The position numbers and the translations under genes were made by a program. Below, one piece after another: positions 392 to 60,344 of a DNA stretch of 60,344 nt. Within the stretch, counting starts at the first letter, position 1. Each line of letters begins with the position of its first letter. Below the pieces are notes generated by a model. The model was not told the DNA's origin. It did not search any database and saw nothing but the letters and a program-made list of their open reading frames with translations. Source of the stretch: Deltaproteobacteria bacterium (GTDB taxonomy: Bacteria > Myxococcota_A > UBA9160 > UBA6930); assembly GCA_031387905.1 (NCBI GenBank), contig JANNDT010000277.1, positions 1-60,344 of the forward strand, read 5' to 3'.

Positions 392-3300
392 ATGCCCAAC
401 ACGCCGCTCCTCGACGCCAGCTACGAGCTCGACCACCGCTACACGCGCACGACCGGCCGCGTGTTCCTCACCGGCGTACAGGCGCTCGTGCGCCTCCCGA
501 TGCTTCAGCGCGAACGCGACCGCGCGGCGGGCCTCGCGACAGCGGGCTTCATCTCCGGCTATCGCGGCTCGCCGCTCGGCGGTTACGACCTCGGGCTCTG
601 GGAAGCGCGCGCGCACCTCGAGCGCTGCGACGTGCTCTTCCAGCCCGGCGTGAACGAGGACCTCGCGGCCACGGCGGTCTGGGGCACGCAGCAAGCGATG
701 GTGCAGCCGGGGCCCAAAAAAGACGGCGTGTTCGCGATCTGGTACGGCAAGGGCCCTGGCGTCGACCGCTCGCTCGACCCGATCAAGCACGGCAACTACA
801 TGGGCACCGCGAAGCACGGCGGCGTGCTCGCGCTGTGCGGCGACGACCCCGGCGCGAAGTCGAGCTCGATCGCGCACCAGAGCGAGCAGGCGATGATTCA
901 CGCCGGCATCCCGGTGCTGAACCCTGCGAGCGTGCAGGAGTACCTCGACTTCGGCGTGCTCGGCTTCGCGATGTCGCGCTTCTCAGGTTGTTGGGTCGCG
1001 ATGAAATGCCTGACCGACACCGTGGACAGCGGCGCGTCCGTCGAGGTTGGCCCCGAGCGCGTGCGCGTCGTCGTGCCCGAGTTCGCGTTCCCGGCGCGCG
1101 ATCACCACATCACGATGAACAACATCCCGCTCGAGATCGAGCGCGCGCTGTATCAGGTGAAGCTGCCGGCGGCGCAGGCGTTTGCGCGCGCGAACGCGGT
1201 CGATCGCGTGGCGCTGGATGCACCGTGGCGCCGTTTCGGAATTGTCACGGCTGGCAAGCCCTACCTCGACGTGCGCCAGGCGCTCGAGGAACTCGGCCTC
1301 GACGAGGCGAAGTGCGCTGCGCTCGGGCTGTGCATCTACAAGGTGGGGATGACCTGGCCGCTCGAGCCGGAGCGGATTCGCGCGTTTTGTTCGGGGCTCG
1401 AAGATGTGCTCGTCGTCGAGGAGAAGCGGCCGATCGTCGAGGAGCAGCTCGCGCGCGTGCTCTACAACGAGCCGCAGCGGCCACGCTTGTTGGGGAAACG
1501 CGACGAGAACGGCTCGCCGCTCGTGCCGAACGAGGGCGAACTCACGCCGAGCGCGATCGCCGCGGTGATCCGCGGCTGGCTCGAGCGCCGCGCGCCCGAG
1601 CACGCGGGCTCGTTGCGCGCCGCGGTCGCCAGCGCGCCGGTAGCGCCGCCGGCGCAGCTGATGCGCCTGCCGAGCTTCTGCTCGGGCTGCCCGCCTAACA
1701 CCTCGACCGTGGTGCCCGAAGACTCGATCGCGCTCGGCGGCATCGGCTGCCACGGCATGGCCGTTTGGCTCCCCGAACGTCGGACGTTCGGGGCCACCCA
1801 AATGGGCGGCGAAGGCGCGAACTGGATCGGCACCGCGCCGTTCACCTCGCTCCCGCACGTCTTCCAGAACCTCGGCGACGGCACCTACTTCCACAGCGGC
1901 CTGCTCGCGATCCGCGCCTGCGTCGCTGCCAACGTGAACATCACCTACAAGCTGCTCGTGAACGGCGCCGTCGCGATGACGGGCGGACAGCCGATCGAGG
2001 GCGAGCCGCTCGAAGGCGAAGTGACTTGCCCCGAGATCGCGCGGCAGCTCGTCGCGGAAGGCGTGAAGCGCGTGGTCGTCGTGACGGACGACGTCACCAA
2101 GTTCGACGAGGGCGTATTCCCGGCTGGCGTCGCCGTCCACGATCGCTCCGAGCTGATGACCGTGCAGAAGCGGCTGCGCGAAGTGCCGGGTGTTACGGCG
2201 ATCGTCTACGACCAGACCTGCGCGGCGGAAGCGCGCCGCCTGCGCCGGCAAGGCAAGTTCGACGACCCGGATCGCCGCATCCTGATCAACGAACTCGTGT
2301 GCGAGGGCTGCGGCGATTGCTCGGTGCAGAGCAACTGCATCTCGATCGAGCCGCTCGAAACCGAGTTCGGGCGCAAGCGGAAGATCAACCAATCGAGCTG
2401 CAACAAGGATTTCTCGTGCGTCAAAGGTTATTGCCCGAGCTTCGTCTCCGTAACAGGTGGCAAGCTGCGCAAGGCGGAAACGAAGCGAGCGGGCATCGAC
2501 GAGAGCGCGCTGTTTGCGGCGCTGCCGCAGCCGGCGCTGCCCGTGCTCGACGCGCCCTACAACGTGCTGCTCACGGGGATCGGCGGCACGGGCGTCGTCA
2601 CGGTGGGCGCGATCCTCGCGATGGCCGCGCACCTCGAAGGCCGCGGCGCGAGCGAACTCGACGTGACCGGCCTCGCGCAGAAGAACGGCGCGGTCGCTAG
2701 CCACGTGCGCATCGCGCGAACACCCGAGGCGATTCACGCCACGCGCATCGGCGCGGGCGGCGCGGATCTCGCGATCGGCTGCGACGTCGTCGTGATGACC
2801 AGTCTCGAGAATCTCCCGAAACTCTCGCCGCGCACCACGGCAGTGGTGAACTCGCACGTGCAGCCCACCGCGGAGTTCGCGACCAATGCGAACCTCGATC
2901 TCTCCGCCGACAAGATGCTGGGCGCGGTGCGTAGCGCGTGCGGCGAAGCGAACGTGCACGCCGTGGGCGCGAACGAGCTCGCGCTGGCTTTGCTCGGCGA
3001 CACGATCGCTACGAACATGTTATTGCTCGGCTTCGCCTGGCAGCGCGGCAAGCTGCCGGTGAGCCATGCCGCGCTCGACCGCGCGATGCTGCTGAACGGC
3101 CGCGGCGTCGAGCTGAACCGCCGCGCGTTCGCGTGGGGGCGGCTGCTCGCTCACGACCCCGAGGCGGTGAAGCGCGCAGCCAAGCCGCTGCTGCGCGAGC
3201 CCGCGGCGCTCGCGGACGCGACGCTCAACGCGCTGGTTGCGAAGCGCGCGGAGTTCCTCACCGCTTATCAGGGCGCCGCGTACGCGGAGCGCTACCGCAA

Positions 3301-3871
3301 GTTCGTCGCGCGCGTCGCGGAACACGAGCAACGAGCCGTGCGCGGGCACGACGCGCTGGCGAAAGCGGCGGCGCGTTACTACTTCAAGCTGCTCGCGTAC
3401 AAAGACGAGTACGAGGTGGCGCGGCTGTATTCGGACGGCTCGTTCGCCGCGCAGGTTTCGCGCGAGTTCGAGGGCGACTTCTCGCTCTCGCTCCACCTCT
3501 CGCCGCAGTTCCTGCCCGCGTTCCTCGCGCCGCGCGACCCCGAGACCGGCCGCGTGAAGAAGTGGTCGATTCCCATGCGCCTGATGCTGCCGGCGTTCAA
3601 GGCGATGGCGGCCCTGAAGTTCCTGCGCGGCAGCCCGCTCGACCCGTTCGGCTGGACGAAGCAGCGCCGCGACGAGCGCGCCGAAATCGTGCGCTACGAG
3701 ACGACGACGGGCGAGCTGCTCGATGCGCTCACGCGCGAGAACCTGCCGATCGCGGTAGAGATCGCGAGCCTGCCCGAAATCGTGCGCGGCTTCGACACGG
3801 TGAAGGAACGCCACCTCGAGCAGGCGCGCGGCAAAGAGCGCGAGTTGCTCGCGGCGTTTCGGCGAGCGTAG
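392..3871 (+). CDS. Indolepyruvate ferredoxin oxidoreductase family protein (fused IorA/IorB type)
   Basis: 1159-aa ORF. It has a 2-oxoacid:ferredoxin oxidoreductase-like N-half (GYRGSPLGG, WYGKGPGVDR), a Cys cluster CEGCGDCSVQSNC...CNKDFSCVKGYCPSF and a GIGGTGVVT gamma-like domain. Confidence 0.9.
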   Translation: MPNTPLLDASYELDHRYTRTTGRVFLTGVQALVRLPMLQRERDRAAGLATAGFISGYRGSPLGGYDLGLWEARAHLERCDVLFQPGVNEDLAATAVWGTQQAMVQPGPKKDGVFAIWYGKGPGVDRSLDPIKHGNYMGTAKHGGVLALCGDDPGAKSSSIAHQSEQAMIHAGIPVLNPASVQEYLDFGVLGFAMSRFSGCWVAMKCLTDTVDSGASVEVGPERVRVVVPEFAFPARDHHITMNNIPLEIERALYQVKLPAAQAFARANAVDRVALDAPWRRFGIVTAGKPYLDVRQALEELGLDEAKCAALGLCIYKVGMTWPLEPERIRAFCSGLEDVLVVEEKRPIVEEQLARVLYNEPQRPRLLGKRDENGSPLVPNEGELTPSAIAAVIRGWLERRAPEHAGSLRAAVASAPVAPPAQLMRLPSFCSGCPPNTSTVVPEDSIALGGIGCHGMAVWLPERRTFGATQMGGEGANWIGTAPFTSLPHVFQNLGDGTYFHSGLLAIRACVAANVNITYKLLVNGAVAMTGGQPIEGEPLEGEVTCPEIARQLVAEGVKRVVVVTDDVTKFDEGVFPAGVAVHDRSELMTVQKRLREVPGVTAIVYDQTCAAEARRLRRQGKFDDPDRRILINELVCEGCGDCSVQSNCISIEPLETEFGRKRKINQSSCNKDFSCVKGYCPSFVSVTGGKLRKAETKRAGIDESALFAALPQPALPVLDAPYNVLLTGIGGTGVVTVGAILAMAAHLEGRGASELDVTGLAQKNGAVASHVRIARTPEAIHATRIGAGGADLAIGCDVVVMTSLENLPKLSPRTTAVVNSHVQPTAEFATNANLDLSADKMLGAVRSACGEANVHAVGANELALALLGDTIATNMLLLGFAWQRGKLPVSHAALDRAMLLNGRGVELNRRAFAWGRLLAHDPEAVKRAAKPLLREPAALADATLNALVAKRAEFLTAYQGAAYAERYRKFVARVAEHEQRAVRGHDALAKAAARYYFKLLAYKDEYEVARLYSDGSFAAQVSREFEGDFSLSLHLSPQFLPAFLAPRDPETGRVKKWSIPMRLMLPAFKAMAALKFLRGSPLDPFGWTKQRRDERAEIVRYETTTGELLDALTRENLPIAVEIASLPEIVRGFDTVKERHLEQARGKERELLAAFRRA

Positions 3872-9648: not shown

Positions 9649-10895
9649 GGAATCGCTCCTTCTTTGCGCAGCCGCGCGAGCTCCGCGTCGTCCGCGCCGA
9701 GCACGTCGCGCAGCACTTCCTCGGTGTGCGCGCCGAGCCGCGGCGCGGGCCCCACCGGGCCTTCGGCGAGGCGCGACATCTTCACCGGGTTGCCGACCAC
9801 GAGGTACGGGGGCTCGCCATCGCTGCGCGGCACTTCGATCAGCATGTCGCGCGCGGCGACATGCGGGTCGGCGGCGATGTCTTCGGCGAGGTTGCTCGGC
9901 CCGGCCGTAATGCCCAGCTCGGCGAGCGTGCGCGCGGCTTCGAGCTTGGTCTTGTCCGCGGCCCAGGCTTCCAGCACGGGGCGGATCACGCCCTCGGTCT
10001 GTTGCGCCCAGCCGACGCGCGTTGCAAAACGCGGATCGCTCAGCCACGCCTCGCGCCCCAACAACTTGCACAGCTTCTCGAACATGTGCTCGCGCAAGAC
10101 GGCGATCACGAAGTAGCCGTCGCGCGCCTTGAACGCGGCCACGAGCGCAGTCGTGCCAGGGCCAGCCATCGAGGCGGGCGCGCCCATCGACCACAGCTGC
10201 GGGACCATGTCGGCCATCGCGAGCATCGAGTCGTACATGGCGATGTCGACGTGCTGGCCGAGGCCACTGACATCGCGGTGGCGCAGCGCGGCGAGCGTGC
10301 CGATCACGGCGTAGAGCGCGGTGGCGTTGTCGCCTAACGCCCCAGCCACAACCACCGGAGGTGGTTGCCCGGGCTTTCGCGCGGGCTCGTAGATGCCGCC
10401 CATCGCCTCGCCGATCGGTGCGTAGGCGGGCCAGTCCGCGTACGGCGATGGCACGAGATTCCCGAAGCCCGAGAGCGACACATAAATGAGTCGTGGGTGG
10501 AGTGCGGCGAGCGCCGCGTAGCCGAGGCCGAGGCGCTGCATGCTGCCGGCGCGGAAGTTTTCGGCGACGACGTCGAAGTGCGGTGTGAGGCGCTTGAAGA
10601 GATCGCGGCCGGCGGCGGCTTTCAGGTCGATCTCGATGCTGCGTTTCGAGAGGTTGTTCCTGAGATACGTGGCGCCGACTTTGCGGCCGTCTTCGTCGAG
10701 CATGAACGGATTCGAAGCGCGGCCGGTTTCGCCGCGGCCCGGAGGCTCGACCTTCACGACCTCGGCGCCGAGGTGCGCGAGCAACTGCGTCGCATACGGC
10801 AGCGCCTGCATTTGCTCGGCCGCGAGCACTCGCACGCCGGCCAGGGGCTTGCCCGCTGCGCCGCGCTCCGGGTGGCGAACTTCTCCGACGCGCAT
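9645..10895 (-). CDS. CaiB/BaiF family (class III) CoA-transferase
   Basis: PLAGVRVLAAEQMQALPYATQLLAHLGAEVVKVEPP is the family N-terminal signature. The ATG at 10895 has GGAGG upstream. Confidence 0.9.
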   Translation of the reverse strand: MRVGEVRHPERGAAGKPLAGVRVLAAEQMQALPYATQLLAHLGAEVVKVEPPGRGETGRASNPFMLDEDGRKVGATYLRNNLSKRSIEIDLKAAAGRDLFKRLTPHFDVVAENFRAGSMQRLGLGYAALAALHPRLIYVSLSGFGNLVPSPYADWPAYAPIGEAMGGIYEPARKPGQPPPVVVAGALGDNATALYAVIGTLAALRHRDVSGLGQHVDIAMYDSMLAMADMVPQLWSMGAPASMAGPGTTALVAAFKARDGYFVIAVLREHMFEKLCKLLGREAWLSDPRFATRVGWAQQTEGVIRPVLEAWAADKTKLEAARTLAELGITAGPSNLAEDIAADPHVAARDMLIEVPRSDGEPPYLVVGNPVKMSRLAEGPVGPAPRLGAHTEEVLRDVLGADDAELARLRKEGAIP

Positions 10896-33599: not shown

Positions 33600-33620
33600 C
33601 GCGGGGACGTTCCATAACTT
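33600..33620. repeat. Left terminal inverted repeat of the RAYT unit
   Basis: Read directly. It is followed by a tandem ATAACTTC ATAACTTC duplication. Confidence 0.8.
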
Positions 33621-34450
33621 CATAACTTCGCGCGGCGGAGCATCTTCGAGACTGCGGGTTGAGAGACGCCCAAGCGGCGGCCCACCGCGGTCAGCGACAT
33701 GCCGAGTTCCTGCACCGCCGCCCGCGCCAGCATCTCCCGCGCGCGAACCGCCGCGCGCGTCCGAGATCGCGACAGGAGCTCCCCGACCGAGCTCCCGGCA
33801 GCCCGCGCAGCATGGGCGGCAATCGCGTCGAAGTTCGCGCCTTGGAAGTCGGCGGGCGCACGCGTTGGCCTAGGCAGCCGCGGCTTCCAGTCTCGCGGCG
33901 CCGGAACGCGCCGAGCGTTCGCGACGGCTGCATGGGCAGCGGCGGGGTCGCGCTCAAACAGCGCGAGCGTCATCGCAGCCGCCTCGAAGGCGTGCGGTGG
34001 GCGCGCGCCGACGACCGCACCGTGGCCGCACCACGCGTACGCCGCGAGGTCATCCAGCAGCACGAGCTTCGCTTCGACTGGGTTTCGGTGGACGTAGGCG
34101 ACCGCGGCCGCGAGGTACGCGTCGGTGTCGACCACCGAAGACAGAAAGCGATTGTGGAAGACGTGCCCGATGCGACGGTGGCGGTTGTTGAAGTAGACCG
34201 CGTAGCCCGTAGCGAGGCGCCGCATCAGCAGCGACAGGCCGGCGTTACCGGAGCGCAACACCAGGTGGACGTGGTTTGGCATGAGAGCCCAGGCAAGGCA
34301 GAGGCAGCCGAGCTCTTGAATCAAGCGATCGAGGCGGGCGATGAACTCGAGACGGTCTGCGTCGTCGAGAAAGATCCGGTGTCGATCGATTCCTCGGAGT
34401 CGAACGTGATGGGTGACGCCCGGGGCGTCGAAGCGAGGGCCGCGGGGCAT
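33620..34450 (-). CDS. REP-associated tyrosine (Y1, HUH) transposase with a C-terminal DnaA-C-like HTH
   Basis: HUH motif PNHVHLVL, catalytic Tyr region AYVHRNPVEAKLV, and C-terminal LGMSLTAVGRRLGVSQPAVSKMLRRAKL. Confidence 0.85.
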   Translation of the reverse strand: MPRGPRFDAPGVTHHVRLRGIDRHRIFLDDADRLEFIARLDRLIQELGCLCLAWALMPNHVHLVLRSGNAGLSLLMRRLATGYAVYFNNRHRRIGHVFHNRFLSSVVDTDAYLAAAVAYVHRNPVEAKLVLLDDLAAYAWCGHGAVVGARPPHAFEAAAMTLALFERDPAAAHAAVANARRVPAPRDWKPRLPRPTRAPADFQGANFDAIAAHAARAAGSSVGELLSRSRTRAAVRAREMLARAAVQELGMSLTAVGRRLGVSQPAVSKMLRRAKL

Positions 34451-54016: not shown

Positions 54017-54997
54017 ATGAACAGCGAGCACACAGCAATGACGAAAATCGTATTTGGCTCGTGCATGCATGTAGTAGACAACGCCACGCAGAGCGTTTGG
54101 AACGAAGCCGCCGCCCACAACCCGGATTGGCTAATACTGGGCGGCGACAACATTTACATGAACTACGGCCCGGCTTGGTTTGGACCGCGCAGATGGTCTC
54201 CGCATGAGTTCGCAGCGAAGATGCTGGAACGCTACACGGCTCAATTCTCTGTTCCGTCATTTCGGGCGCTGATCGAGCCCATTCCCATTGGACAGGTGAT
54301 TGGAGTCTGGGATGATCACGATTTTGGTTGGAACAACTGTTACGGAACCTCGATCAAGGACCAGATGCCCGCCAAGAGCCTCATCGCGCATGCGATGTTT
54401 CACCACTACTTCGCGGCACTCAACGTGCGGCCCCTGCCGGCATCTCTGCCCTCGCTGTCATTGGCCGGCCTACCCCACCTGATCGACTCGACGAAGGAGG
54501 CTTACCGTGCGCTCGATCTCGGCCCACTGCGGGTTTTGCTTTGCGACGGGCGGAGCTATCGCGAAGAGAATCAGAGCAATCCGGCCGGCGCCTCCCTTCT
54601 CGGTACCCAACAGGAGTCATGGCTGCTTACGGAGATCGCTAACGCCAGCAAGCCAGTCCTGATCGTCTCCGGTTCGACGATGACCAGCGATGGGGGAGAC
54701 CAAAGCTGGGACCACTTCGCAGATTTCTTCAAGTTGAAATTTCTACCAGCCACGAAGTCAAAGGTCGTGATGCTTCTGGGCGGCGATGTGCACGAAAATC
54801 GACTGCCTACGCCTCCGAATGATTTTCCTGTGGAGATAATCTCGTCTGGCGCTGCCATTGGTAAGTGTTTTCGTAAGCGAAATTTTGGAGTTCTCGAAGT
54901 GTCGTCTGCTGACGCGACTATCCGTCTCTTCAAGAAGGGCGTCGTTCAGTACTCCGGGCATCTCGACCTTGCGAGCGGCGCGTTTGCCCTCACGTAA
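54017..54997 (+). CDS. PhoD-like metallophosphatase (326 aa, no signal peptide), compositionally atypical
   Basis: Motifs: LILGGDNIYMN, GVWDDHDFGWNN, GGDVHEN. A hand count of the first 130 nt gives about 55% GC. Confidence 0.8.
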   Translation: MNSEHTAMTKIVFGSCMHVVDNATQSVWNEAAAHNPDWLILGGDNIYMNYGPAWFGPRRWSPHEFAAKMLERYTAQFSVPSFRALIEPIPIGQVIGVWDDHDFGWNNCYGTSIKDQMPAKSLIAHAMFHHYFAALNVRPLPASLPSLSLAGLPHLIDSTKEAYRALDLGPLRVLLCDGRSYREENQSNPAGASLLGTQQESWLLTEIANASKPVLIVSGSTMTSDGGDQSWDHFADFFKLKFLPATKSKVVMLLGGDVHENRLPTPPNDFPVEIISSGAAIGKCFRKRNFGVLEVSSADATIRLFKKGVVQYSGHLDLASGAFALT

Positions 54998-55112
54998 CGC
55001 TGGGGGACTAGGGAGCGACTGCCCGGCAGCCACGCGAGACACACCGGCACGCCATGGTTCGCCACTGATGCTCGTCTTCATCCGGGACTTCTGAGCGATT
55101 AGGGAACGCTTC

Positions 55113-56294
55113 TCAATCCGCCTCGGGCGCGAGCCCGAAGCGTTCCATGTACGGCCCGAACGCCTGCCGTACTTTCGCCGGGTCGACGCCGAAATCCGCG
55201 GGCGCGTAGCGATGGATGCCGTCCTTGCCCTTCGGATGGTCGGCGATGAAGGCGCGCATGCGCTGGGCGCCGGCGGCAGTCATCGGCAAGCCGAGCGCCG
55301 CGTAGATCTTCTCGACCTCGGAGAACTGGTCGCGCACGAAATCCTGGAAGTGCATGTCGTAGAAGACGGCGCGCGGGTACTGCTTCGCGCTTCTCACCGC
55401 GACGCCGTGCTCGAGCACGCGCCCCAGGCGCGCGGTCCAGTCGGCGGCGATCTCGAGCGGATCGACTTGGTCGCTGCCCATGCTGCGCACGAGCGTGGTG
55501 AGGCTGGCGTAAGAGGTCAGCGACTTCACCGGGTCGCGATGTGTGAAGACGATGCGCGCGTCGGGGTAGGTCTCGAGCAGGTGCTCGAGGCCCCACAGGT
55601 GCGCGCCGGTCTTCAGCACCCAGCGCTCGCGGCGATTGCGCCACTGCAGGTGCTGGAGCTGCCGGCGGTGAAAGACGTACACGTGTGACCAGTCCGCCTC
55701 GTGGTCGACCCAGTCTTGATAAGTCGGCACGCGAAACTGGTTGTGGAAGAGTGGCGTGCACATGGCTTCGCCCATCATCGTCACGCACTCTTGCGAGAGC
55801 GTGGCGCCCATCGGGTGCATCGCCTTGAAGGCGGGGATCTGGAGATCGACCGAAGGGAAGGTGGCGGCGCAGCGCGCGATGCGCGGATCGCTGTCGAAGG
55901 TGGCGGCCTCCGGCGGAGGCGACGGGAACATCGCCTCCCAGGTGAGCGGCGCGCGGTTATCAGGGTCTTGCGCGAGGATGTCGTGAAGGATCGTGGTGCC
56001 GGTGCGCGGCATGCCGATGATGAAGACCGGCTTCACAATCTCCTCGCGCGCGATCTCGGCGAAGCGTTTGCGATCGGCGACGTAGCCGAGGCGATTCACG
56101 GTGTGGCCGAGCACGCGCTCGCGCGCGATCAGGCGGCCGAGCGCGTTCAGGCGGCTCTCGCGCTCGAGGGAATCGAGCAGCAGCCTGAGCGGCGCGAGGA
56201 AGGGGCCGTCGCCAAGGTCATCGAGCCCGCCCGCGCGCCGCCTCGCCTCGCTGAGAATCGCGTCGAACTCGAGGCTCACAGTGGGGTCACTCAT
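55113..56294 (-). CDS. Sulfotransferase family protein
   Basis: PAPS 5'-phosphosulfate loop IIGMPRTGTTILHDIL. 393 aa from the ATG at 56294, with an alternative ATG at 56309. The track ORF extension is junk. Confidence 0.85.
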   Translation of the reverse strand: MSDPTVSLEFDAILSEARRRAGGLDDLGDGPFLAPLRLLLDSLERESRLNALGRLIARERVLGHTVNRLGYVADRKRFAEIAREEIVKPVFIIGMPRTGTTILHDILAQDPDNRAPLTWEAMFPSPPPEAATFDSDPRIARCAATFPSVDLQIPAFKAMHPMGATLSQECVTMMGEAMCTPLFHNQFRVPTYQDWVDHEADWSHVYVFHRRQLQHLQWRNRRERWVLKTGAHLWGLEHLLETYPDARIVFTHRDPVKSLTSYASLTTLVRSMGSDQVDPLEIAADWTARLGRVLEHGVAVRSAKQYPRAVFYDMHFQDFVRDQFSEVEKIYAALGLPMTAAGAQRMRAFIADHPKGKDGIHRYAPADFGVDPAKVRQAFGPYMERFGLAPEAD

Positions 56295-56374
56295 CGCGAT
56301 CCTTCTCATGCGCGGCTCCCGGAATCCCGGCGGCGCCGCAGAGTGGCACACTGCCGTCACGCGGGGAGAGAAGC

Positions 56375-57598
56375 GTGATGAAGCTTCGCGGGCCGGTTGC
56401 GCTCGCTTCGAGCATTGCGCGCGCAGCGGCGCAGCTCCTGCTCGATGGCGCGCGCGAGCCATTAGGGCTCTCGCTCCCGCGAACGCCGGAGGCGCTGACG
56501 CGTGCCGGCACTGTGGACGCACTGCTCCGCGACTACGCGCCCACTGGGGCGCCGGTGCTGCCGCGCGTGGCGGCGGCGCGTTTGGCCGGCGTCGACTTCG
56601 AGAGCAGCAACTGCAGGAACTTCCTGATCGAGCTCGACTACGCCGAGCGCGGAACGGAGGCCGCCGCGCCGCGCACGCTCTACGCGAAGCTGCCCAGCGA
56701 TTCGCTCGCGACGCGCCTCTTCGCCGGGGCGCTCGGCTTCTGGGCGCTCGAGTGCACGTTCTGCGAGCGCGTGGCGGCGCAAGTGCCGATCCGCGTGCCG
56801 CGCGTCTACGCGGTCGCACGGCGCGGCGCGCGCTTCGTGCTGCTGCTCGAGAATCTCCGCGAGTCGCCGGGCGTGCGGCTCTTCAACAATCGCGACATGG
56901 CCGCGGGCACGACGCCCGAACGTGCGCGCCTCTGTCTGAGCGCGTTCGCCGAGCTGCACGCGGCCTTCCACGGCTGGAGCCCCGAGCGACGCGAGGCGTT
57001 ATTGCCGATCGCGCTGCATCTGTTTCTAGCGCCGCGGCAACGCGCGATCACGCGAGCGCTGAACGCCGCGGCGATCGGCCCAGCGCAGCGCGCGGCGCCG
57101 GAGCTGTTCCCGCCGGAGATCGCCGCGCTCTGCCGGCGCGCGCTCGAGCGCTGGGATGCGCTGCTGGCGTTCTGGTATCGCGAGCCCCTCACTCTCGTGC
57201 ACGGCGACAGCCACGTCGCGAACTGCTTCGAGTACGCGACCCCCTCCGGCCCGCGCATGGGCATGCTCGACTTCCAGGCCGTGCACTGGTCCAAGGGCAT
57301 CCGCGACGTGCAGTACTTCCTGATCCACTCGCTCGAGCCAGAGGTGCTCGCCGTCCACGAGGACGCCCTAATCGATCACTACCTCGCCGAGTTGGCGCGC
57401 TTCGGCGTGAGCCTCGACCCCGCGGAGACCCGCGAGCAATACCGCGCCTTCTCGTTCCAGACCCTCATGGTGGGCGCAGTCTCGATCGGCCTCGGCACGC
57501 TGACCGAACGCGAGGCGACCGTGCGCACCGTGCTGCGGCGCGAGGTCGCGGCGATTCGCCGCCTCCGCTTCGGCGACTGGCTCGACGGGCTCGGGTGA
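56375..57598 (+). CDS. APH/choline-kinase/EcKL-like phosphotransferase family protein
   Basis: Catalytic loop LVHGDSHVANCF and metal-binding MLDFQAVHW. Confidence 0.75.
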   Translation: MMKLRGPVALASSIARAAAQLLLDGAREPLGLSLPRTPEALTRAGTVDALLRDYAPTGAPVLPRVAAARLAGVDFESSNCRNFLIELDYAERGTEAAAPRTLYAKLPSDSLATRLFAGALGFWALECTFCERVAAQVPIRVPRVYAVARRGARFVLLLENLRESPGVRLFNNRDMAAGTTPERARLCLSAFAELHAAFHGWSPERREALLPIALHLFLAPRQRAITRALNAAAIGPAQRAAPELFPPEIAALCRRALERWDALLAFWYREPLTLVHGDSHVANCFEYATPSGPRMGMLDFQAVHWSKGIRDVQYFLIHSLEPEVLAVHEDALIDHYLAELARFGVSLDPAETREQYRAFSFQTLMVGAVSIGLGTLTEREATVRTVLRREVAAIRRLRFGDWLDGLG

Positions 57599-57639: not shown

Positions 57640-58443
57640 TCACCGATCGTCAGCGACTAACACCCCGTCCTCGACCCATCTCCCCAGCACGCTCGCAGCG
57701 AACGCAGCCCCGGCTTCGTCGGCGCGCTCTTCTGCGGCCAGCGCGCACAGCTCGCCGAAGCGCACACCGTGCTGCGCGCGCGCGAGCAGCGTGGCCTCGC
57801 TCGCTTCGAGCGCGCGGTGCATCACTCGCTCTTCGCGCCGCCACACGAACACGCACTCGGCTGCGGCCGCGAGCGTCGCGAGCGCGAGCGGCTGCTCGGC
57901 GTCGTGGGCGGCGCGCACGGCGCGAACGGGCCACGCGAGCGTGAGCAGCTGCGCACCAGGAACTACGGCCAGCGCGAGCTGGTCCCACAGTTCGGGCGGC
58001 AGCGCGGTGAGATCGGCGCGCGTGAGCAGCTTGCTGTCGACTGCGTCGAACGCGTCGGTGACGGCGAGCTCGAAGCGCGCGAGGTCTGCGGCCCAGGGCG
58101 CGCTCAGGCGAAGCTCTGCGGCGGCCGGCGCGGCGTGCTCTGCGATGAACGCGGGGAGGCGCGCGCCGGCGTAGCGCAGCGAGGGGTGCTGCGAAGGATT
58201 CGCGTGCAGGTACGCAGCAGCGAGCGCGGTGAAACAGGCGTCGCCGAGCGCGCGTTTCAGCGCGGGGAAGTCGTCGCCGAGCGCGGAAATGATGCGCGCG
58301 CTGTAAGCGTTGCGATAGACGCCGAGACGCTCCGCCGCACTCGCGCGCGCATCGCCAAACAGCCCGGGCGTCGCGGCCGGGTCTTCGCGCGCCATCAGCC
58401 AGCCGGCAAAAGCGCCCTGCGCGCGCGTAAGCGGCTCGCTCAC
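57640..58443 (-). CDS. DUF2063 protein (BufC/MbnC-like RiPP precursor-binding partner)
   Basis: RLGVYRNAYSARIISALGDDFPALKRALGDACFTALAAAYL. The GTG start overlaps the DUF692 stop (GTGA). Confidence 0.8.
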   Translation of the reverse strand: MSEPLTRAQGAFAGWLMAREDPAATPGLFGDARASAAERLGVYRNAYSARIISALGDDFPALKRALGDACFTALAAAYLHANPSQHPSLRYAGARLPAFIAEHAAPAAAELRLSAPWAADLARFELAVTDAFDAVDSKLLTRADLTALPPELWDQLALAVVPGAQLLTLAWPVRAVRAAHDAEQPLALATLAAAAECVFVWRREERVMHRALEASEATLLARAQHGVRFGELCALAAEERADEAGAAFAASVLGRWVEDGVLVADDR

Positions 58444-59288
58444 GCCGCTACTTCCGCGGTGCCAGGACGGCGTACTTCAGCGCCGCACACACGCTCGAGG
58501 ATCTCCCGCGCGCGCGCCGCTTCCGCGACGACGCGCTCCCACGGCGGGATGCGGTCATCCCACTCGATGAGCGTCGAGACGGGGCCGAGCCGCGCGAGCG
58601 TGCGCTCGAACAGCGCCCAGACTTCGTCGCGCACCGGGTAGTCGTGCGTGTCGATGAGCAGCGCGCCGGCTTCGCTCGGGCCCGCGAGGTGAATCTGGAA
58701 GACGCGGGCGGGATCGAGCGCGGCGATTGCGGCGTCGGCGTCGATGCCGTGATTATGCGCGTTCACGAACAAGTTGTTGAGGTCGAGCAGAATGCCGCAG
58801 TCGGCCTCCGCCGAAATTGCGTCCAGGAACTCTCCCTCGCTCATGGCGTCGTGCGTGAAGCGCACGTAGCTCGAGACGTTCTCGATCGCGATGCGGCGGC
58901 CGAGCCGCTCTTGCACTTCGCGAATACGCGCGGCCACGTGCCGCACGGCTTCCTCGGTGTGCGGCAGCGGCAGTAAATCGTGCAGGTGCGCGCCCCTGTG
59001 GGCGGTCCAGCACAGGTGATCGGAGAGCCACGCGGGCTGAAAACGGCCGGCGAGCGCGGCGAGTTCGCCGAGGTACTTCGCATCGAGCGGATCGCTCGCG
59101 CCGAGATCGAGCGAGACGCCGTGCAGCACGAGCGGCGCGAGTTCGCGTACCTCGCCGAGAATGCGCAGCGGGCGGCCGCCAGGGATTAGGTAGTTCTCGG
59201 AGATCGCTTCGAAGAAATCTGCGCCGGCGCCGCCGCACGCGGCGATCTCGGCGTAGTGGCGCGGGCGCAGGCCGATGCCGACGCCCAG
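58440..59288 (-). CDS. DUF692 / MNIO (multinuclear non-heme iron oxidative) enzyme, BufB/MbnB-like
   Basis: Motifs: GVGIGLRPRHY, DFFEAISENY, LVLHGVSLDLG, IENVSSY, TLIEWDD. The conserved N-terminal motifs lie upstream of the first ATG/GTG/TTG (59129), so a CTG at 59288 preceded by GAGG-N8 is proposed. The start is uncertain. Confidence 0.75.
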   Translation of the reverse strand: MGVGIGLRPRHYAEIAACGGAGADFFEAISENYLIPGGRPLRILGEVRELAPLVLHGVSLDLGASDPLDAKYLGELAALAGRFQPAWLSDHLCWTAHRGAHLHDLLPLPHTEEAVRHVAARIREVQERLGRRIAIENVSSYVRFTHDAMSEGEFLDAISAEADCGILLDLNNLFVNAHNHGIDADAAIAALDPARVFQIHLAGPSEAGALLIDTHDYPVRDEVWALFERTLARLGPVSTLIEWDDRIPPWERVVAEAARAREILERVCGAEVRRPGTAEVAA

Positions 59289-59343
59289 GTAGGGCGCCTC
59301 GGGAGGGCGAGGCGGTGCGCCGCGCCCTCCCTCAGCGTTTTCA

Positions 59344-59595
59344 CTACTTCTTCTCAGCGGCCTTTGCCTTCGCCGCGTCGCACTCGGCGGCCGTCATCTC
59401 CATGACGCCCTGGCCGGCGCAACCGTTCTTGCCCGCGCACTCGTTGTGCGCGGTCGCGCAGGAACCTTTGCCCTTGCACGAGTTCACGCCTTCGCACTTC
59501 ACCTTGGCCTCATCGGCGCTGGCGAGTCCGGCGACCGGCGCGCCCATCAGGAAAAGCGCCGCGGCCGCCGCGGCGAGAGCTGCTGTCTTGTTCAC
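59344..59595 (-). CDS. Bufferin-like Cys-rich RiPP precursor with a Sec signal peptide (83 aa)
   Basis: The GTG at 59595 lies 7 nt after GGAGGA. The sequence is MNKTAALAAAAAALFLMGAPVAGLASA / DEAKVKCEGVNSCKGKGSCATAHNECAGKNGCAGQGVMEMTAAECDAAKAKAAEKK, with six Cys. Confidence 0.7.
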   Translation of the reverse strand: MNKTAALAAAAAALFLMGAPVAGLASADEAKVKCEGVNSCKGKGSCATAHNECAGKNGCAGQGVMEMTAAECDAAKAKAAEKK

Positions 59596-59629
59596 AGTGA
59601 GATCCTCCATGTGGCGCATCGAGGCGCCT

Positions 59630-59655
59630 GGTCGCGGTAACGCTGCACCGCGACC
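59630..59655 (-). promoter_or_regulatory. Perfect 9-bp-stem hairpin between the nitrile hydratase accessory gene and the precursor gene
   Basis: GGTCGCGGT-N8-ACCGCGACC. There is no U-tract, so it could be an attenuator, a processing site or a protein-binding site. Confidence 0.3.
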
Positions 59656-59725
59656 GTTGGTTTCATCGAACACCAGGCTAGATGCGCTGGCAGCGAGCAG
59701 GGTCACACTTACGCAGATCGCCGCG

Positions 59726-60097
59726 CTACGGGTGGTCCCAGCCCGCAGGCCGGGCGGCGAGTCCGGCGACGCGGGCTTCGAGCGCGTCTGGCGCGAGCAA
59801 CTGCTTGCGGGCCGCGAGGCGCTCGAAGGCTTCGAGCCAGCGCTCCCAGTAGCGATAGCCCTCGCCGCTCGTGCCGTGCGCGCGCTCCCACGTGCCGATC
59901 GATTCGATCAGCAGCGCCTGGAACTCGCGCCACTCGAACGCGCCGGCTTCGTAGAGCGCCAGGGTGAGGCCAAACACGCGGCTCTCCCAAAGTTCTGCGA
60001 ACTGCAATTCGCCGTTCTTGCGCGGCGGCGAGAGCGGACCCTCGAAACTCACGGGGCTTCGCTCGTCACTCACGCGGCGCGCCCGCTCTCGCGACAC
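59726..60097 (-). CDS. Nitrile hydratase accessory (activator) protein
   Basis: [44 protein letters not shown]...[13 protein letters not shown]. The start is uncertain, either 60097 or the GTG at 60073. Confidence 0.8.
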
Positions 60098-60344
60098 CGA
60101 TCAGCGCGTCGCGCGTGACGAGCGCTGCGAGCTGTTCCTCGCTCGCGTGCTCGGTGCCCGCGGGCCGCTCGGGCAGCACCAGGTAGCGAAGCTCGGCGCT
60201 CGAATCCCAGACGCGCACTTCGTCGCTCGCGGGCAGCTCGAGCCCGAACTCGCGCAGCACCGCGCGCGGCTCGCGCACCACGCGCGCGCGGTAGGGCGGG
60301 CTCTTGTACCACGTGGGCGGCAGCCCTAACAACGACGACGGGTA
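60066..60344 (-). CDS. Nitrile hydratase alpha subunit, C-terminal part (5' end outside the window)
   Basis: [65 protein letters not shown]. The frame is open to the window edge. Confidence 0.85.

What the first reader, a model, noticed from the sequence alone, without database searches (positions are those of the whole stretch)
57640..59595. Bufferin-like RiPP locus (6-Cys signal-peptide precursor + MNIO/DUF692 + DUF2063) without a DoxX gene, fused to the tail of a nitrile hydratase operon
Seen in the sequence:
- (i) An 83-aa ORF with a Sec signal peptide (MNKTAALAAAAAALFLMGAPVAGLASA). Its core has six Cys, each flanked by small residues (KCEG, SCKG, SCAT, ECAG, GCAG, ECDA).
- (ii) About 55 nt downstream, a DUF692-type ORF (GVGIGLRPRHY, DFFEAISENY, LVLHGVSL, IENVSSY, IEWDD).
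- (iii) A DUF2063 ORF joined to it by a GTGA overlap.

Established knowledge: MNIO enzymes with DUF2063 partners convert Cys of exported precursors into 5-thiooxazoles. The products are the bufferins, periplasmic copper-binding RiPPs, and the usual operons also carry a DoxX-type gene.

Inference: this is a 6-Cys variant that lacks DoxX, because the next gene is convergent. It sits directly downstream of nitrile hydratase alpha and accessory genes, which belong to a Co/Fe metalloenzyme system. Metal specificity or physiological role may therefore differ from the described bufferins.
Basis: partly seen in the sequence, partly recalled or inferred. Interest (0 to 1): 0.8.

Follow-up and report, generated by a model that had tools for sequence, protein, structure and literature searches.

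The report
Ordinary Buf2-type bufferin gene cluster
This is a standard three-gene cluster for a "bufferin", an exported cysteine-rich peptide that an iron enzyme converts into a copper-binding compound; it is a typical member of the known Buf2 family, and the nitrile hydratase genes beside it are most likely just neighbours.

Summary
The three ORFs are real and lie on the minus strand at the stated coordinates.
- The 83-aa precursor passes NCBIfam's BufA2 model (75 bits, cut-off 60).
- The MNIO passes the BufB model (343 bits, cut-off 310) and keeps all nine residues that match the MbnB iron ligands.
- The third gene has a DUF2063 domain and overlaps bufB by GTGA.

The founding Buf2 operon of Caulobacter also has a six-Cys, Sec-exported precursor and no DoxX gene. 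Among related loci with enough flank, 28 of 52 lack DoxX.

The nitrile hydratase adjacency holds only in one narrow Myxococcota clade, in 8 distinct assemblies.
- One clade member keeps the same neighbourhood and bufABC without the hydratase.
- An ECF-sigma-type promoter motif (AACC-N16-CGT) sits directly upstream of bufA in 11 related loci.
- The cluster is therefore its own unit.

One oddity remains. In the window, bufB has no ATG, GTG or TTG start ahead of its conserved N-terminus. Only CTG codons are available, and a conserved strong hairpin separates bufA from the bufB core. The gene is nevertheless under purifying selection.

Verdict: a new member of a known kind, of low interest.

The parts
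59344..59595 (-). bufA2: bufferin precursor of 83 aa. It has a predicted Sec signal peptide (cleavage after ASA, residue 27) and a 56-aa core with six Cys.
   Evidence: - ORF and translation.
- NCBIfam NF050166 Cu_RiPP_BufA2 scores 75 bits against a cut-off of 60, covering profile positions 2-77 of 79.
- The six Cys align with those of about 50 BufA2-like precursors from related loci.
- 748 homologues at E <= 1e-3.
59604..59608 (-). Shine-Dalgarno sequence GGAGG of bufA, 8 nt before the GTG start.
   Evidence: Read directly from the sequence. The same GGAGG is present in L001 and L081.
59638..59665 (-). Putative ECF-sigma-type promoter of bufABC: TGAAACC-N16-CGTTA. The transcription start is expected near 59631.
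   Evidence: - AACC-N16-CGT is invariant while the spacer varies, upstream of bufA in the window, L001, L002, L003, L007, L081, L161, L164, L165, L167 and L168.
- It resembles the Caulobacter sigma-F site GTAACC-N16-CGAA that drives the buf operons (PMC3511200).
- This rests on motif conservation only; there is no transcript evidence.
59301..59331 (-). Conserved GC-rich hairpin (GGGAGGGCG-N13-CGCCCTCCC) between the bufA stop and the conserved bufB core.
   Evidence: - MFE is -48.4 kcal/mol for the 81-nt context, z = -4.9 against shuffles.
- The stem is kept in 9 relatives, with 86.5% of cells paired against at most 63.5% when the partners are slid.
- Three pairs change on both sides, which is weak statistically: 83 of 500 shuffles reach that number.
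58440..59357 (-). bufB: MNIO (DUF692) bufferin maturase. The conserved core is 59288..58443. The start codon is unresolved; the candidates are CTG 59357..59355 and CTG 59288..59286.
   Evidence: - NF050167 MNIO_BufB scores 343 bits (cut-off 310); PF05114 scores 339 bits.
- PDB relatives are 3bww, TglH and MbnB.
- H56, H91, E136, D169, N172, H200, D213, H215 and E242 are invariant in 81 homologues and correspond to the MbnB Fe ligands (PMC9060507).
- There is no canonical start in the frame.
- dN/dS is 0.16-0.19.
57640..58443 (-). bufC: DUF2063-domain partner protein of 267 aa, with a GTGA overlap with the bufB stop.
   Evidence: - PF09836 DUF2063 scores 78.5 bits over residues 8-100.
- There is a weak full-length match to NF050145 HvfC (59 bits, below its cut-off of 142).
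- No solved relative was found by sequence.
59726..60097 (-). Neighbour, not part of the cluster: nitrile hydratase accessory protein.
   Evidence: TIGR03889 scores 65.7 bits against a cut-off of 46.
60066..60344 (-). Neighbour, not part of the cluster: the C-terminal 92 aa of the nitrile hydratase alpha subunit, cut by the window end.
   Evidence: PF02979 matches profile positions 100-184 of 184, E = 7e-42. Orthologues in L001 and L002 carry VCTLCSC, which I recall as the cobalt-type motif.

Best explanation
This is a Buf2-type bufferin (captophorin) biosynthetic cluster, bufA2-bufB-bufC, from an uncultured Myxococcota bacterium.

Shown here: the family assignments, the intact catalytic residues and the gene layout.

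Inferred by homology with the Caulobacter Buf2 system:
1. The 83-aa precursor is bound in the cytoplasm by the BufB (multinuclear iron oxidase) and BufC (DUF2063 plus RRE-like) complex.
2. That complex converts the four central Cys into 5-thiooxazoles, a change of -4 Da each.
3. The Sec system exports the peptide and signal peptidase cuts after ASA27.
4. The first and last Cys form a disulfide.
5. The 56-aa product chelates excess copper in the periplasm.

Inferred from motif conservation: the cluster is most likely transcribed from its own ECF-sigma-dependent promoter just upstream of bufA.

Inferred: a strong hairpin between bufA and the bufB core, together with a non-canonical (CTG) bufB start, probably keeps enzyme levels well below precursor levels.

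The nitrile hydratase genes upstream are neighbours, not components.
For: - BufA2 and BufB HMMs are both above the curated equivalog cut-offs, and DUF2063 is above the Pfam cut-off.
- The six Cys sit in the family pattern.
- All nine MbnB-equivalent iron ligands are present and invariant in 81 homologues.
- The gene order A-B-C with a GTGA overlap matches the founding Buf2 operon, which also lacks DoxX (PMC11626156).
- bufB is under purifying selection, with dN/dS 0.16-0.19. Ratios for bufA and bufC against the three closest relatives are 0.38-0.51.
- The AACC-N16-CGT promoter motif is conserved with variable spacers in 11 loci, including one without the hydratase. It resembles the sigma-F site of the Caulobacter buf operons.
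- The hairpin is thermodynamically strong and conserved.
Against: - In the window, bufB has no ATG, GTG or TTG start before its conserved N-terminus, so expression of the enzyme is not assured.
- BufC reaches only 59 bits on the nearest NCBIfam model, HvfC (cut-off 142).
- Signal-peptide cleavage, the modification chemistry, copper binding and promoter activity are all inferred, not tested.
- No intrinsic terminator was found after the hydratase accessory gene, so read-through co-transcription cannot be excluded.
Confidence: 0.82

Rival explanations
1. The bufferin cluster is functionally tied to the adjacent cobalt-type nitrile hydratase. For example, it could be co-transcribed with it and buffer or deliver cobalt rather than copper.
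For: - The order NHase alpha, accessory, bufA is kept in 8 distinct assemblies of the clade: the window, L001, L002, L081/82, L164, L165/166, L167 and L168.
- In the window, synteny downstream of bufC is broken.
- No clear terminator lies between the accessory gene and bufA.
- The orthologous alpha subunits carry VCTLCSC, the cobalt-type motif by my recollection.
Against: - All cases fall within one shallow clade, with BufB at least 84% identical.
- L161-L163, in the same clade, keep the neighbourhood desaturase, Sacchrp_dh, X235, bufABC without any hydratase.
- More distant Myxococcota with full flanks (L005, L006) lack the hydratase, as do about 150 other related loci.
- The conserved promoter motif lies between the two units and persists in L161.
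- The hydratase is cytoplasmic, whereas the bufferin is exported.
- None of the ten top-ranked MNIO and bufferin papers mentions nitrile hydratase.
Confidence: 0.05
2. The locus is silent or decaying: bufB has lost its start codon and makes no enzyme, so the precursor stays unmodified.
For: - The window's bufB frame contains no canonical start for 35 codons upstream of the conserved core, whereas 147 of 159 related loci have one within -15..+1.
- Relatives L081, L005 and L006 have TTG at the position where the window has CTG.
Against: - The same lack of a nearby canonical start recurs in independent assemblies of the clade: L002, L161 and L167 have none upstream of the core, L164 shows only CTG codons in the stretch read, and L001 and L003 have one only 21-27 codons upstream.
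- The ORF is otherwise intact, and every catalytic residue is kept.
- dN/dS is 0.16-0.19.
- CTG is an allowed, if weak, initiation codon in translation table 11. The gene call on record for L164, from an NCBI genome, starts at the equivalent CTG and gives 301 aa.
Confidence: 0.1
3. It belongs to another MNIO RiPP class (Buf1/DUF2282, oxazolin/HvfABC-type, or methanobactin) rather than Buf2.
For: The MNIO also hits the HvfB, ApyH and MbnB models, and BufC hits HvfC. Some precursor homologues carry a precomputed DUF2282 hit.
Against: - HvfB scores 250 bits (cut-off 360), MbnB 66 (cut-off 325) and ApyH 85 (cut-off 400). Only BufB passes its cut-off.
- The precursor has no Pfam DUF2282 hit, has no EGKCG repeats, and passes the BufA2 model.
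Confidence: 0.03

Closest known systems
Buf2 operon of Caulobacter vibrioides (bufA2B2C2, CCNA_03001-02999), the founding member of the BUF_6/12Cys bufferins (PMC11626156)
   Same: - Three genes in the order precursor, MNIO, DUF2063 partner.
- A Sec signal peptide.
- A core of about 56-61 residues with six Cys.
- No doxX gene.
- An ECF-type promoter motif upstream. In Caulobacter this is sigma-F, GTAACC-N16-CGAA.
   Different: - The host is an uncultured Myxococcota bacterium rather than an alphaproteobacterium.
- Two of the usual CKG motifs read CAG.
- bufB lacks a canonical start codon and is preceded by a strong conserved hairpin.
- The sigma factor and the inducing metal are unknown here.
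Buf1 / gig operons (DUF2282 precursor, MNIO, DUF2063, DoxX), e.g. Caulobacter buf1ABCD
   Same: The same enzyme pair and the same chemistry (Cys to 5-thiooxazole), with an exported copper-binding product.
   Different: Buf1 has a four-Cys DUF2282 precursor, a DoxX gene and often sigF-nrsF in the cluster. The window's precursor does not match DUF2282, and no DoxX is present in the window.
Oxazolin / HvfABC and fontiphorin-type captophorins (PMC11252979, PMC13097082)
   Same: An MNIO plus an RRE-containing DUF2063 partner that installs 5-thiooxazoles on an exported Cys-rich peptide for copper handling.
   Different: Their precursors carry EGKCG-type repeats. The HvfB and HvfC models score below cut-off here.
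Methanobactin MbnABC
   Same: An MNIO fold with the same iron-ligand set, modifying Cys in a copper-binding RiPP.
   Different: - The partner is MbnC, not DUF2063.
- The precursor has a leader peptide and no Sec signal.
- The modification is oxazolone/thioamide.
- The product is a secreted copper-acquiring chalkophore.
- The MbnB model scores 66 bits against a cut-off of 325.

Membership tests
Buf2 (BufA2 / BUF_6/12Cys) bufferin cluster | The precursor matches the BufA2 family profile. | tested here: met
   NF050166 scores 75 bits against a cut-off of 60, covering profile positions 2-77 of 79.
Buf2 (BufA2 / BUF_6/12Cys) bufferin cluster | Six (or twelve) conserved Cys in the core. | tested here: met
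   The six Cys, in the contexts KCEG, SCKG, SCAT, ECAG, GCAG and ECDA, match the V[KH]C.G.N.CKG...C..A.N.C.G.N.CKG.G......C pattern of about 50 relatives. Six Cys occur in 90% of Buf2 precursors (PMC12452194).
Buf2 (BufA2 / BUF_6/12Cys) bufferin cluster | An N-terminal Sec signal peptide on the precursor. | tested here: inconclusive
   By inspection only: MNK, a 21-residue hydrophobic stretch, and ASA|DE following the AxA rule, with no lipobox Cys. No signal-peptide predictor was available.
Buf2 (BufA2 / BUF_6/12Cys) bufferin cluster | An adjacent MNIO of the BufB type with a complete iron-ligand set. | tested here: met
   NF050167 scores 343 bits against a cut-off of 310. H56, H91, E136, D169, N172, H200, D213, H215 and E242 are present and invariant in 81 sequences. 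They were matched to MbnB H54, H90, E133, D163, N166, H192, D208, H210 and E239: six lie in register in the phmmer alignment, H192 and E239 are 1-2 residues out of register, and H54 lies outside the aligned stretch and was assigned from the HG motif.
Buf2 (BufA2 / BUF_6/12Cys) bufferin cluster | An adjacent DUF2063-domain partner (BufC). | tested here: met
   PF09836 scores 78.5 bits against a cut-off of 27.2, and the gene overlaps bufB by GTGA. The C-terminal RRE-like fold was not tested.
Buf2 (BufA2 / BUF_6/12Cys) bufferin cluster | All three genes are expressible. | tested here: inconclusive
   bufA and bufC have GTG starts. bufB has only CTG candidates, but it is under purifying selection.
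Buf2 (BufA2 / BUF_6/12Cys) bufferin cluster | The central Cys are converted to 5-thiooxazoles, and the product binds copper and protects against copper stress. | not testable with these tools
   This needs co-expression, LC-MS/MS, metal-binding assays and a growth phenotype.
Buf1 (DUF2282) bufferin cluster | The precursor matches Pfam DUF2282 (PF10048) with four conserved Cys. | tested here: not met
   No Pfam family matched at E <= 0.01, and the precursor has six Cys.
Buf1 (DUF2282) bufferin cluster | A DoxX gene, and often sigF-nrsF, in the cluster. | tested here: not met
   tblastn with four DoxX sequences found nothing in the 60-kb window (the DoxX family of two of the four query sequences was confirmed). 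A crude motif scan found no ECF sigma. Caveat: relatives L161 and L164 have a weak DoxX-family gene about 4 kb upstream of bufA, in a region that lies beyond the window end.
Oxazolin / HvfABC-type captophorin cluster | HvfB- and HvfC-type enzymes and an EGKCG-repeat precursor. | tested here: not met
   HvfB scores 250 bits against 360 and HvfC 59 against 142. The precursor has no EGKCG repeats.
Nitrile hydratase operon (bufABC as an integral part) | Co-occurrence beyond close relatives and no separate promoter. | tested here: not met
   The adjacency occurs only in a clade with at least 84% BufB identity. L161 lacks the hydratase, and it is absent from about 150 other loci. A conserved promoter motif lies between the two units.

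The most novel reading that the evidence does not exclude
In this Myxococcota lineage the bufferin has been recruited to serve the neighbouring cobalt-type nitrile hydratase. It would buffer or scavenge cobalt in the periplasm, so the thiooxazole peptide would have a metal role other than copper detoxification. The adjacency persists in 8 distinct assemblies although the downstream flank has been rearranged in the window, and co-transcription is not excluded.
Probability: 0.05. Interest if true: 0.6.

Novelty: new member of a known kind. Interest (0 to 1): 0.2.

Why it matters
The locus adds a Myxococcota example to a family already counted in the thousands, so it changes little on its own. 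The practical value is corrective: six Cys with no DoxX is the canonical Buf2 layout, not a variant.

Two minor points might interest RiPP specialists:
- There is a conserved hairpin in the bufA-bufB spacer, and bufB has no canonical start codon across a whole clade. That may be a built-in way to keep the maturase scarce relative to its substrate, and it makes gene callers truncate bufB.
- An ECF-type promoter motif sits upstream of Buf2 operons well outside Alphaproteobacteria. This hints that sigma-factor control of bufferins is widespread even where no sigma gene is nearby.

Tried and rejected
- **Frameshift or sequencing error in bufB.** Rejected: the same arrangement recurs in independent assemblies.
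- **A +1 frameshift giving a BufA-BufB fusion.** The spacer length is 1 mod 3 in five loci, but 2 mod 3 in L003 and 0 mod 3 in L081. A fusion would also export the enzyme. Rejected.
- **The GAGG after the hairpin as the bufB Shine-Dalgarno sequence, with codon 0 as the start.**
  - For: TTG at codon 0 in L081, L005 and L006.
  - Against: CTC at codon 0 in L001-L003 and L161.
  - Against: in L167, synonymous changes (ccg gaa) remove GAGG but keep the peptide PPEAP. This points to an upstream start, CTG -23/-24.
  - Left unresolved.
- **Hairpin covariation.** Only 3 pairs change on both sides, and 83 of 500 shuffles reach that number. This is suggestive, not proof.
- **The other three GAAACC-N16-CGT sites in the window.** All lie inside ORFs, so they are treated as chance matches.
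- **Rfam scan of the whole window.** Nothing found.
- **PDB sequence search with BufC.** Nothing found.
- **Consensus terminator scan.** No convincing terminator between the hydratase genes and bufA.
- **Regex scan for an ECF sigma factor in the window.** Nothing found, but the test is crude.
- **Search for paralogous buf genes in the window.** None.
- **Structure prediction.** Not run, because it would not change the verdict.
Full report

Yes. All three genes lie on the minus strand.
- bufA runs from 59595 to 59344. It starts with GTG, has GGAGG 8 nt upstream, and encodes 83 aa: MNKTAALAAAAAALFLMGAPVAGLASA|DEAKVKCEGVNSCKGKGSCATAHNECAGKNGCAGQGVMEMTAAECDAAKAKAAEKK.
- The conserved MNIO core begins 55 nt after the bufA stop, at LGVGIGLRPRHY (59288), and ends at TGA 58442..58440.
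- The DUF2063 gene starts at GTG 58443 inside a GTGA overlap and ends at 57640.
- Upstream on the same strand are a nitrile hydratase accessory gene and the last 92 residues of an alpha subunit, which is cut by the window end. Downstream is a convergent EcKL-kinase-like gene.

**2. What is it?**

Profile searches settle the family.
- The precursor scores 75 bits on NCBIfam NF050166, "BufA2 family periplasmic bufferin-type metallophore" (cut-off 60).
- The MNIO scores 343 bits on NF050167, "MNIO family bufferin maturase" (cut-off 310). The HvfB, ApyH, MbnB and ChrH models all fall below their cut-offs.
- The third protein matches Pfam DUF2063 at 78.5 bits.
- The precursor has no Pfam DUF2282 hit, so it is not Buf1 type.

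The enzyme looks catalytically intact.
- By sequence it is related to the solved DUF692 protein 3bww (E = 9e-50), to TglH and to MbnB.
- The MbnB iron ligands are His54, His90, Glu133, Asp163, Asn166, His192, Asp208, His210 and Glu239 (PMC9060507).
- Their counterparts in the window protein are H56, H91, E136, D169, N172, H200, D213, H215 and E242. All nine are invariant across 81 homologues.

The precursor follows the family pattern. Its six Cys sit where they do in about 50 BufA2-like peptides recovered next to related MNIO genes. The precursor has 748 homologues at E <= 1e-3, mostly unnamed metagenomic proteins.

**3. Is "six Cys, no DoxX" a variant?**

No.
- The founding Buf2 operon of Caulobacter vibrioides (CCNA_02999-03001) has a Sec-signal precursor with a 61-residue, six-Cys core and "lacks a bufD1-like gene" (PMC11626156).
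- DoxX is dispensable even in Buf1 (same paper).
- Six Cys occur in 90% of Buf2 precursors (PMC12452194).
- I checked this on 160 related loci from genome and metagenome collections. The DoxX family of two of the four tblastn query sequences was confirmed with Pfam.
- Among 52 loci with an adjacent BufA2-like gene and enough flank, 28 have no DoxX. Among those with at least 50% BufB identity to the window, 19 of 23 have none. The DoxX-positive loci are nearly all Acidobacteriaceae.
- The window itself has no DoxX homologue.
- One caveat: in relatives L161 and L164 a weak DoxX-family gene (25 bits in L161, Pfam cut-off 23.6) lies about 4 kb upstream of bufA in a separate unit. The corresponding region lies beyond the window end.

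**4. Is it tied to the nitrile hydratase?**

The closest relatives are uncultured Myxococcota.
- The order hydratase alpha, accessory, bufA is present in 8 distinct assemblies: the window, L001, L002, L081/82, L164, L165/166, L167 and L168. All have at least 84% BufB identity to the window.
- In L001 and L002 the full context is desaturase, saccharopine-dehydrogenase-like, hydratase beta, alpha (VCTLCSC, which I recall as the cobalt type), accessory, bufABC.
- L161-L163 belong to the same clade (BufB 85% identical). They carry desaturase, Sacchrp_dh, a 235-aa unknown protein, then bufABC, with no hydratase. A homologue of that 235-aa protein also sits in L001, upstream of the hydratase. The hydratase is therefore an optional module.
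- More distant Myxococcota with full flanks (L005, L006) lack it, as do about 150 other loci.
- Between the accessory gene and bufA lies TGAAACC-N16-CGTTA (59665..59638). The AACC-N16-CGT core is invariant in 11 loci while the spacers differ, and it is present in the hydratase-free L161.
- This is the shape of an ECF-sigma promoter. It is close to the Caulobacter sigma-F site GTAACC-N16-CGAA that drives both buf operons (PMC3511200).
- I conclude that bufABC is its own unit. Read-through from the hydratase genes cannot be excluded, because no clear terminator was found.

**5. How does it most likely work?**

This is inferred by homology with Buf2 (PMC11626156) and the wider captophorin class (PMC13097082).
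1. BufB and BufC act on the precursor in the cytoplasm.
2. They convert the four central Cys to 5-thiooxazoles.
3. The Sec system exports the peptide, and signal peptidase cleaves after ASA27.
4. Cys I and Cys VI form a disulfide.
5. The 56-aa product binds excess periplasmic copper.

None of these chemical steps could be tested here.

**6. The one real oddity: the bufB start**

- The bufB frame is open for 35 codons upstream of the conserved Leu (59288) but contains no ATG, GTG or TTG.
- By contrast, 147 of 159 related loci have a canonical start within -15..+1 of that Leu.
- The lack of a nearby canonical start is clade-wide. L002, L161 and L167 have no canonical start upstream of the core. 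L164 shows only CTG codons in the stretch read. L001 and L003 have one only 21-27 codons upstream. L081, L005 and L006 have TTG at codon 0.
- The window has two candidates. One is CTG at 59288. The other is CTG at 59357, which lies inside the last codons of bufA. The gene call on record for L164, from an NCBI genome, starts at the equivalent CTG and gives 301 aa.
- In L167, synonymous changes destroy the GAGG after the hairpin but keep the peptide RPPEAP. This favours the upstream start and translation through the hairpin.
- The hairpin at 59331..59301 is strong (z = -4.9) and conserved, with a few compensatory changes whose statistics are weak.
- bufB is clearly under purifying selection, with dN/dS 0.16-0.19, so it is not a dead gene.
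- My reading, as inference only, is weak CTG initiation coupled to bufA translation. Together with the hairpin, this would hold the enzyme well below the precursor in abundance.

**7. Verdict**

The family assignment is right. The two novelty claims, a DoxX-less six-Cys variant and a link to the nitrile hydratase, are not supported. This is a new member of a known kind and of low interest.

Noticed in passing
window 59286-59396 (-): bufB has no ATG, GTG or TTG start before its conserved N-terminus; only CTG at 59357 and at 59288 are available. The same lack of a nearby canonical start recurs across the Myxococcota clade, yet dN/dS is 0.16-0.19. Gene callers truncate the protein to 229 aa here and 242 aa in L161.
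   Followed up: partly
window 59301-59331 (-): A strong conserved hairpin, GGGAGGGCG-N13-CGCCCTCCC, lies between the bufA stop and the bufB core. A second small stem holds the CTG at 59288 in its loop. It may act as an attenuator or mRNA-stability element that sets the precursor-to-enzyme ratio.
   Followed up: partly
window 59638-59665 (-): An ECF-sigma-type promoter motif, TGAAACC-N16-CGTTA, lies upstream of bufA. It is conserved in 11 related loci with variable spacers. An inverted repeat, GGTCGCGGT-N8-ACCGCGACC, overlaps its -10 element; L001 has a different repeat at the same place.
   Followed up: partly
window 3435-3459, 10706-10730, 34062-34086 (all -): There are three further exact matches to GAAACC-N16-CGT, making 4 in the window against 0.49 expected. 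All three lie inside long ORFs, so they are probably chance matches.
   Followed up: yes
L161 1838-2233 and L164 838-1233: In close relatives a weak DoxX-family gene, paired with a PNPOx/F420-type oxidoreductase gene, lies about 4 kb upstream of bufA. The equivalent region is beyond the window end, so the genome may still carry a DoxX gene nearby.
   Followed up: partly
window 54017-57598, compared with L161 7911-12246 and L164 7960-12279: Synteny breaks immediately 3' of bufC. Relatives there have convergent DUF1295 and RND-efflux genes (ACR_tran in both, plus an adaptor with CusB/CzcB-like domains in L164). The window instead has EcKL-kinase-like, sulfotransferase and PhoD-like genes.
   Followed up: partly
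L001 4174-4839 and L002 3145-4140: The nitrile hydratase alpha subunits of the relatives have a His/Asp-rich N-terminal extension, for example MAHEHDHDGEHGHDHAHE, which might bind metal. The window's copy is cut before this region.
   Followed up: no
L161 5171-5878; L001 about 2963-3549: A 235-aa protein with a signal-like N-terminus and a C-terminal hydrophobic segment has no family match. It occupies the slot between Sacchrp_dh and bufA in L161, and between Sacchrp_dh and the hydratase in L001.
   Followed up: partly
L047, L057, L059, L062, L065, L071, L073 (bufA positions as): Several Acidobacteriaceae BufA2-like precursors have only four Cys: the third and fourth are replaced (...CKGQGGGK..AGKNDCKG...). 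This would be a natural reduced-Cys variant of Buf2.
   Followed up: no
L002 (CAYWRY010000076.1): This contig is labelled 'uncultured Spirochaetales' but shares 84% BufB identity and full synteny with Myxococcota MAGs, so it is probably mis-binned.
   Followed up: no
window 33620-34450 (-): By eye, this ORF resembles an IS200-like or REP-associated tyrosine transposase (…HVHLVLR…) with a C-terminal helix-turn-helix. It was not checked against any profile.
   Followed up: no
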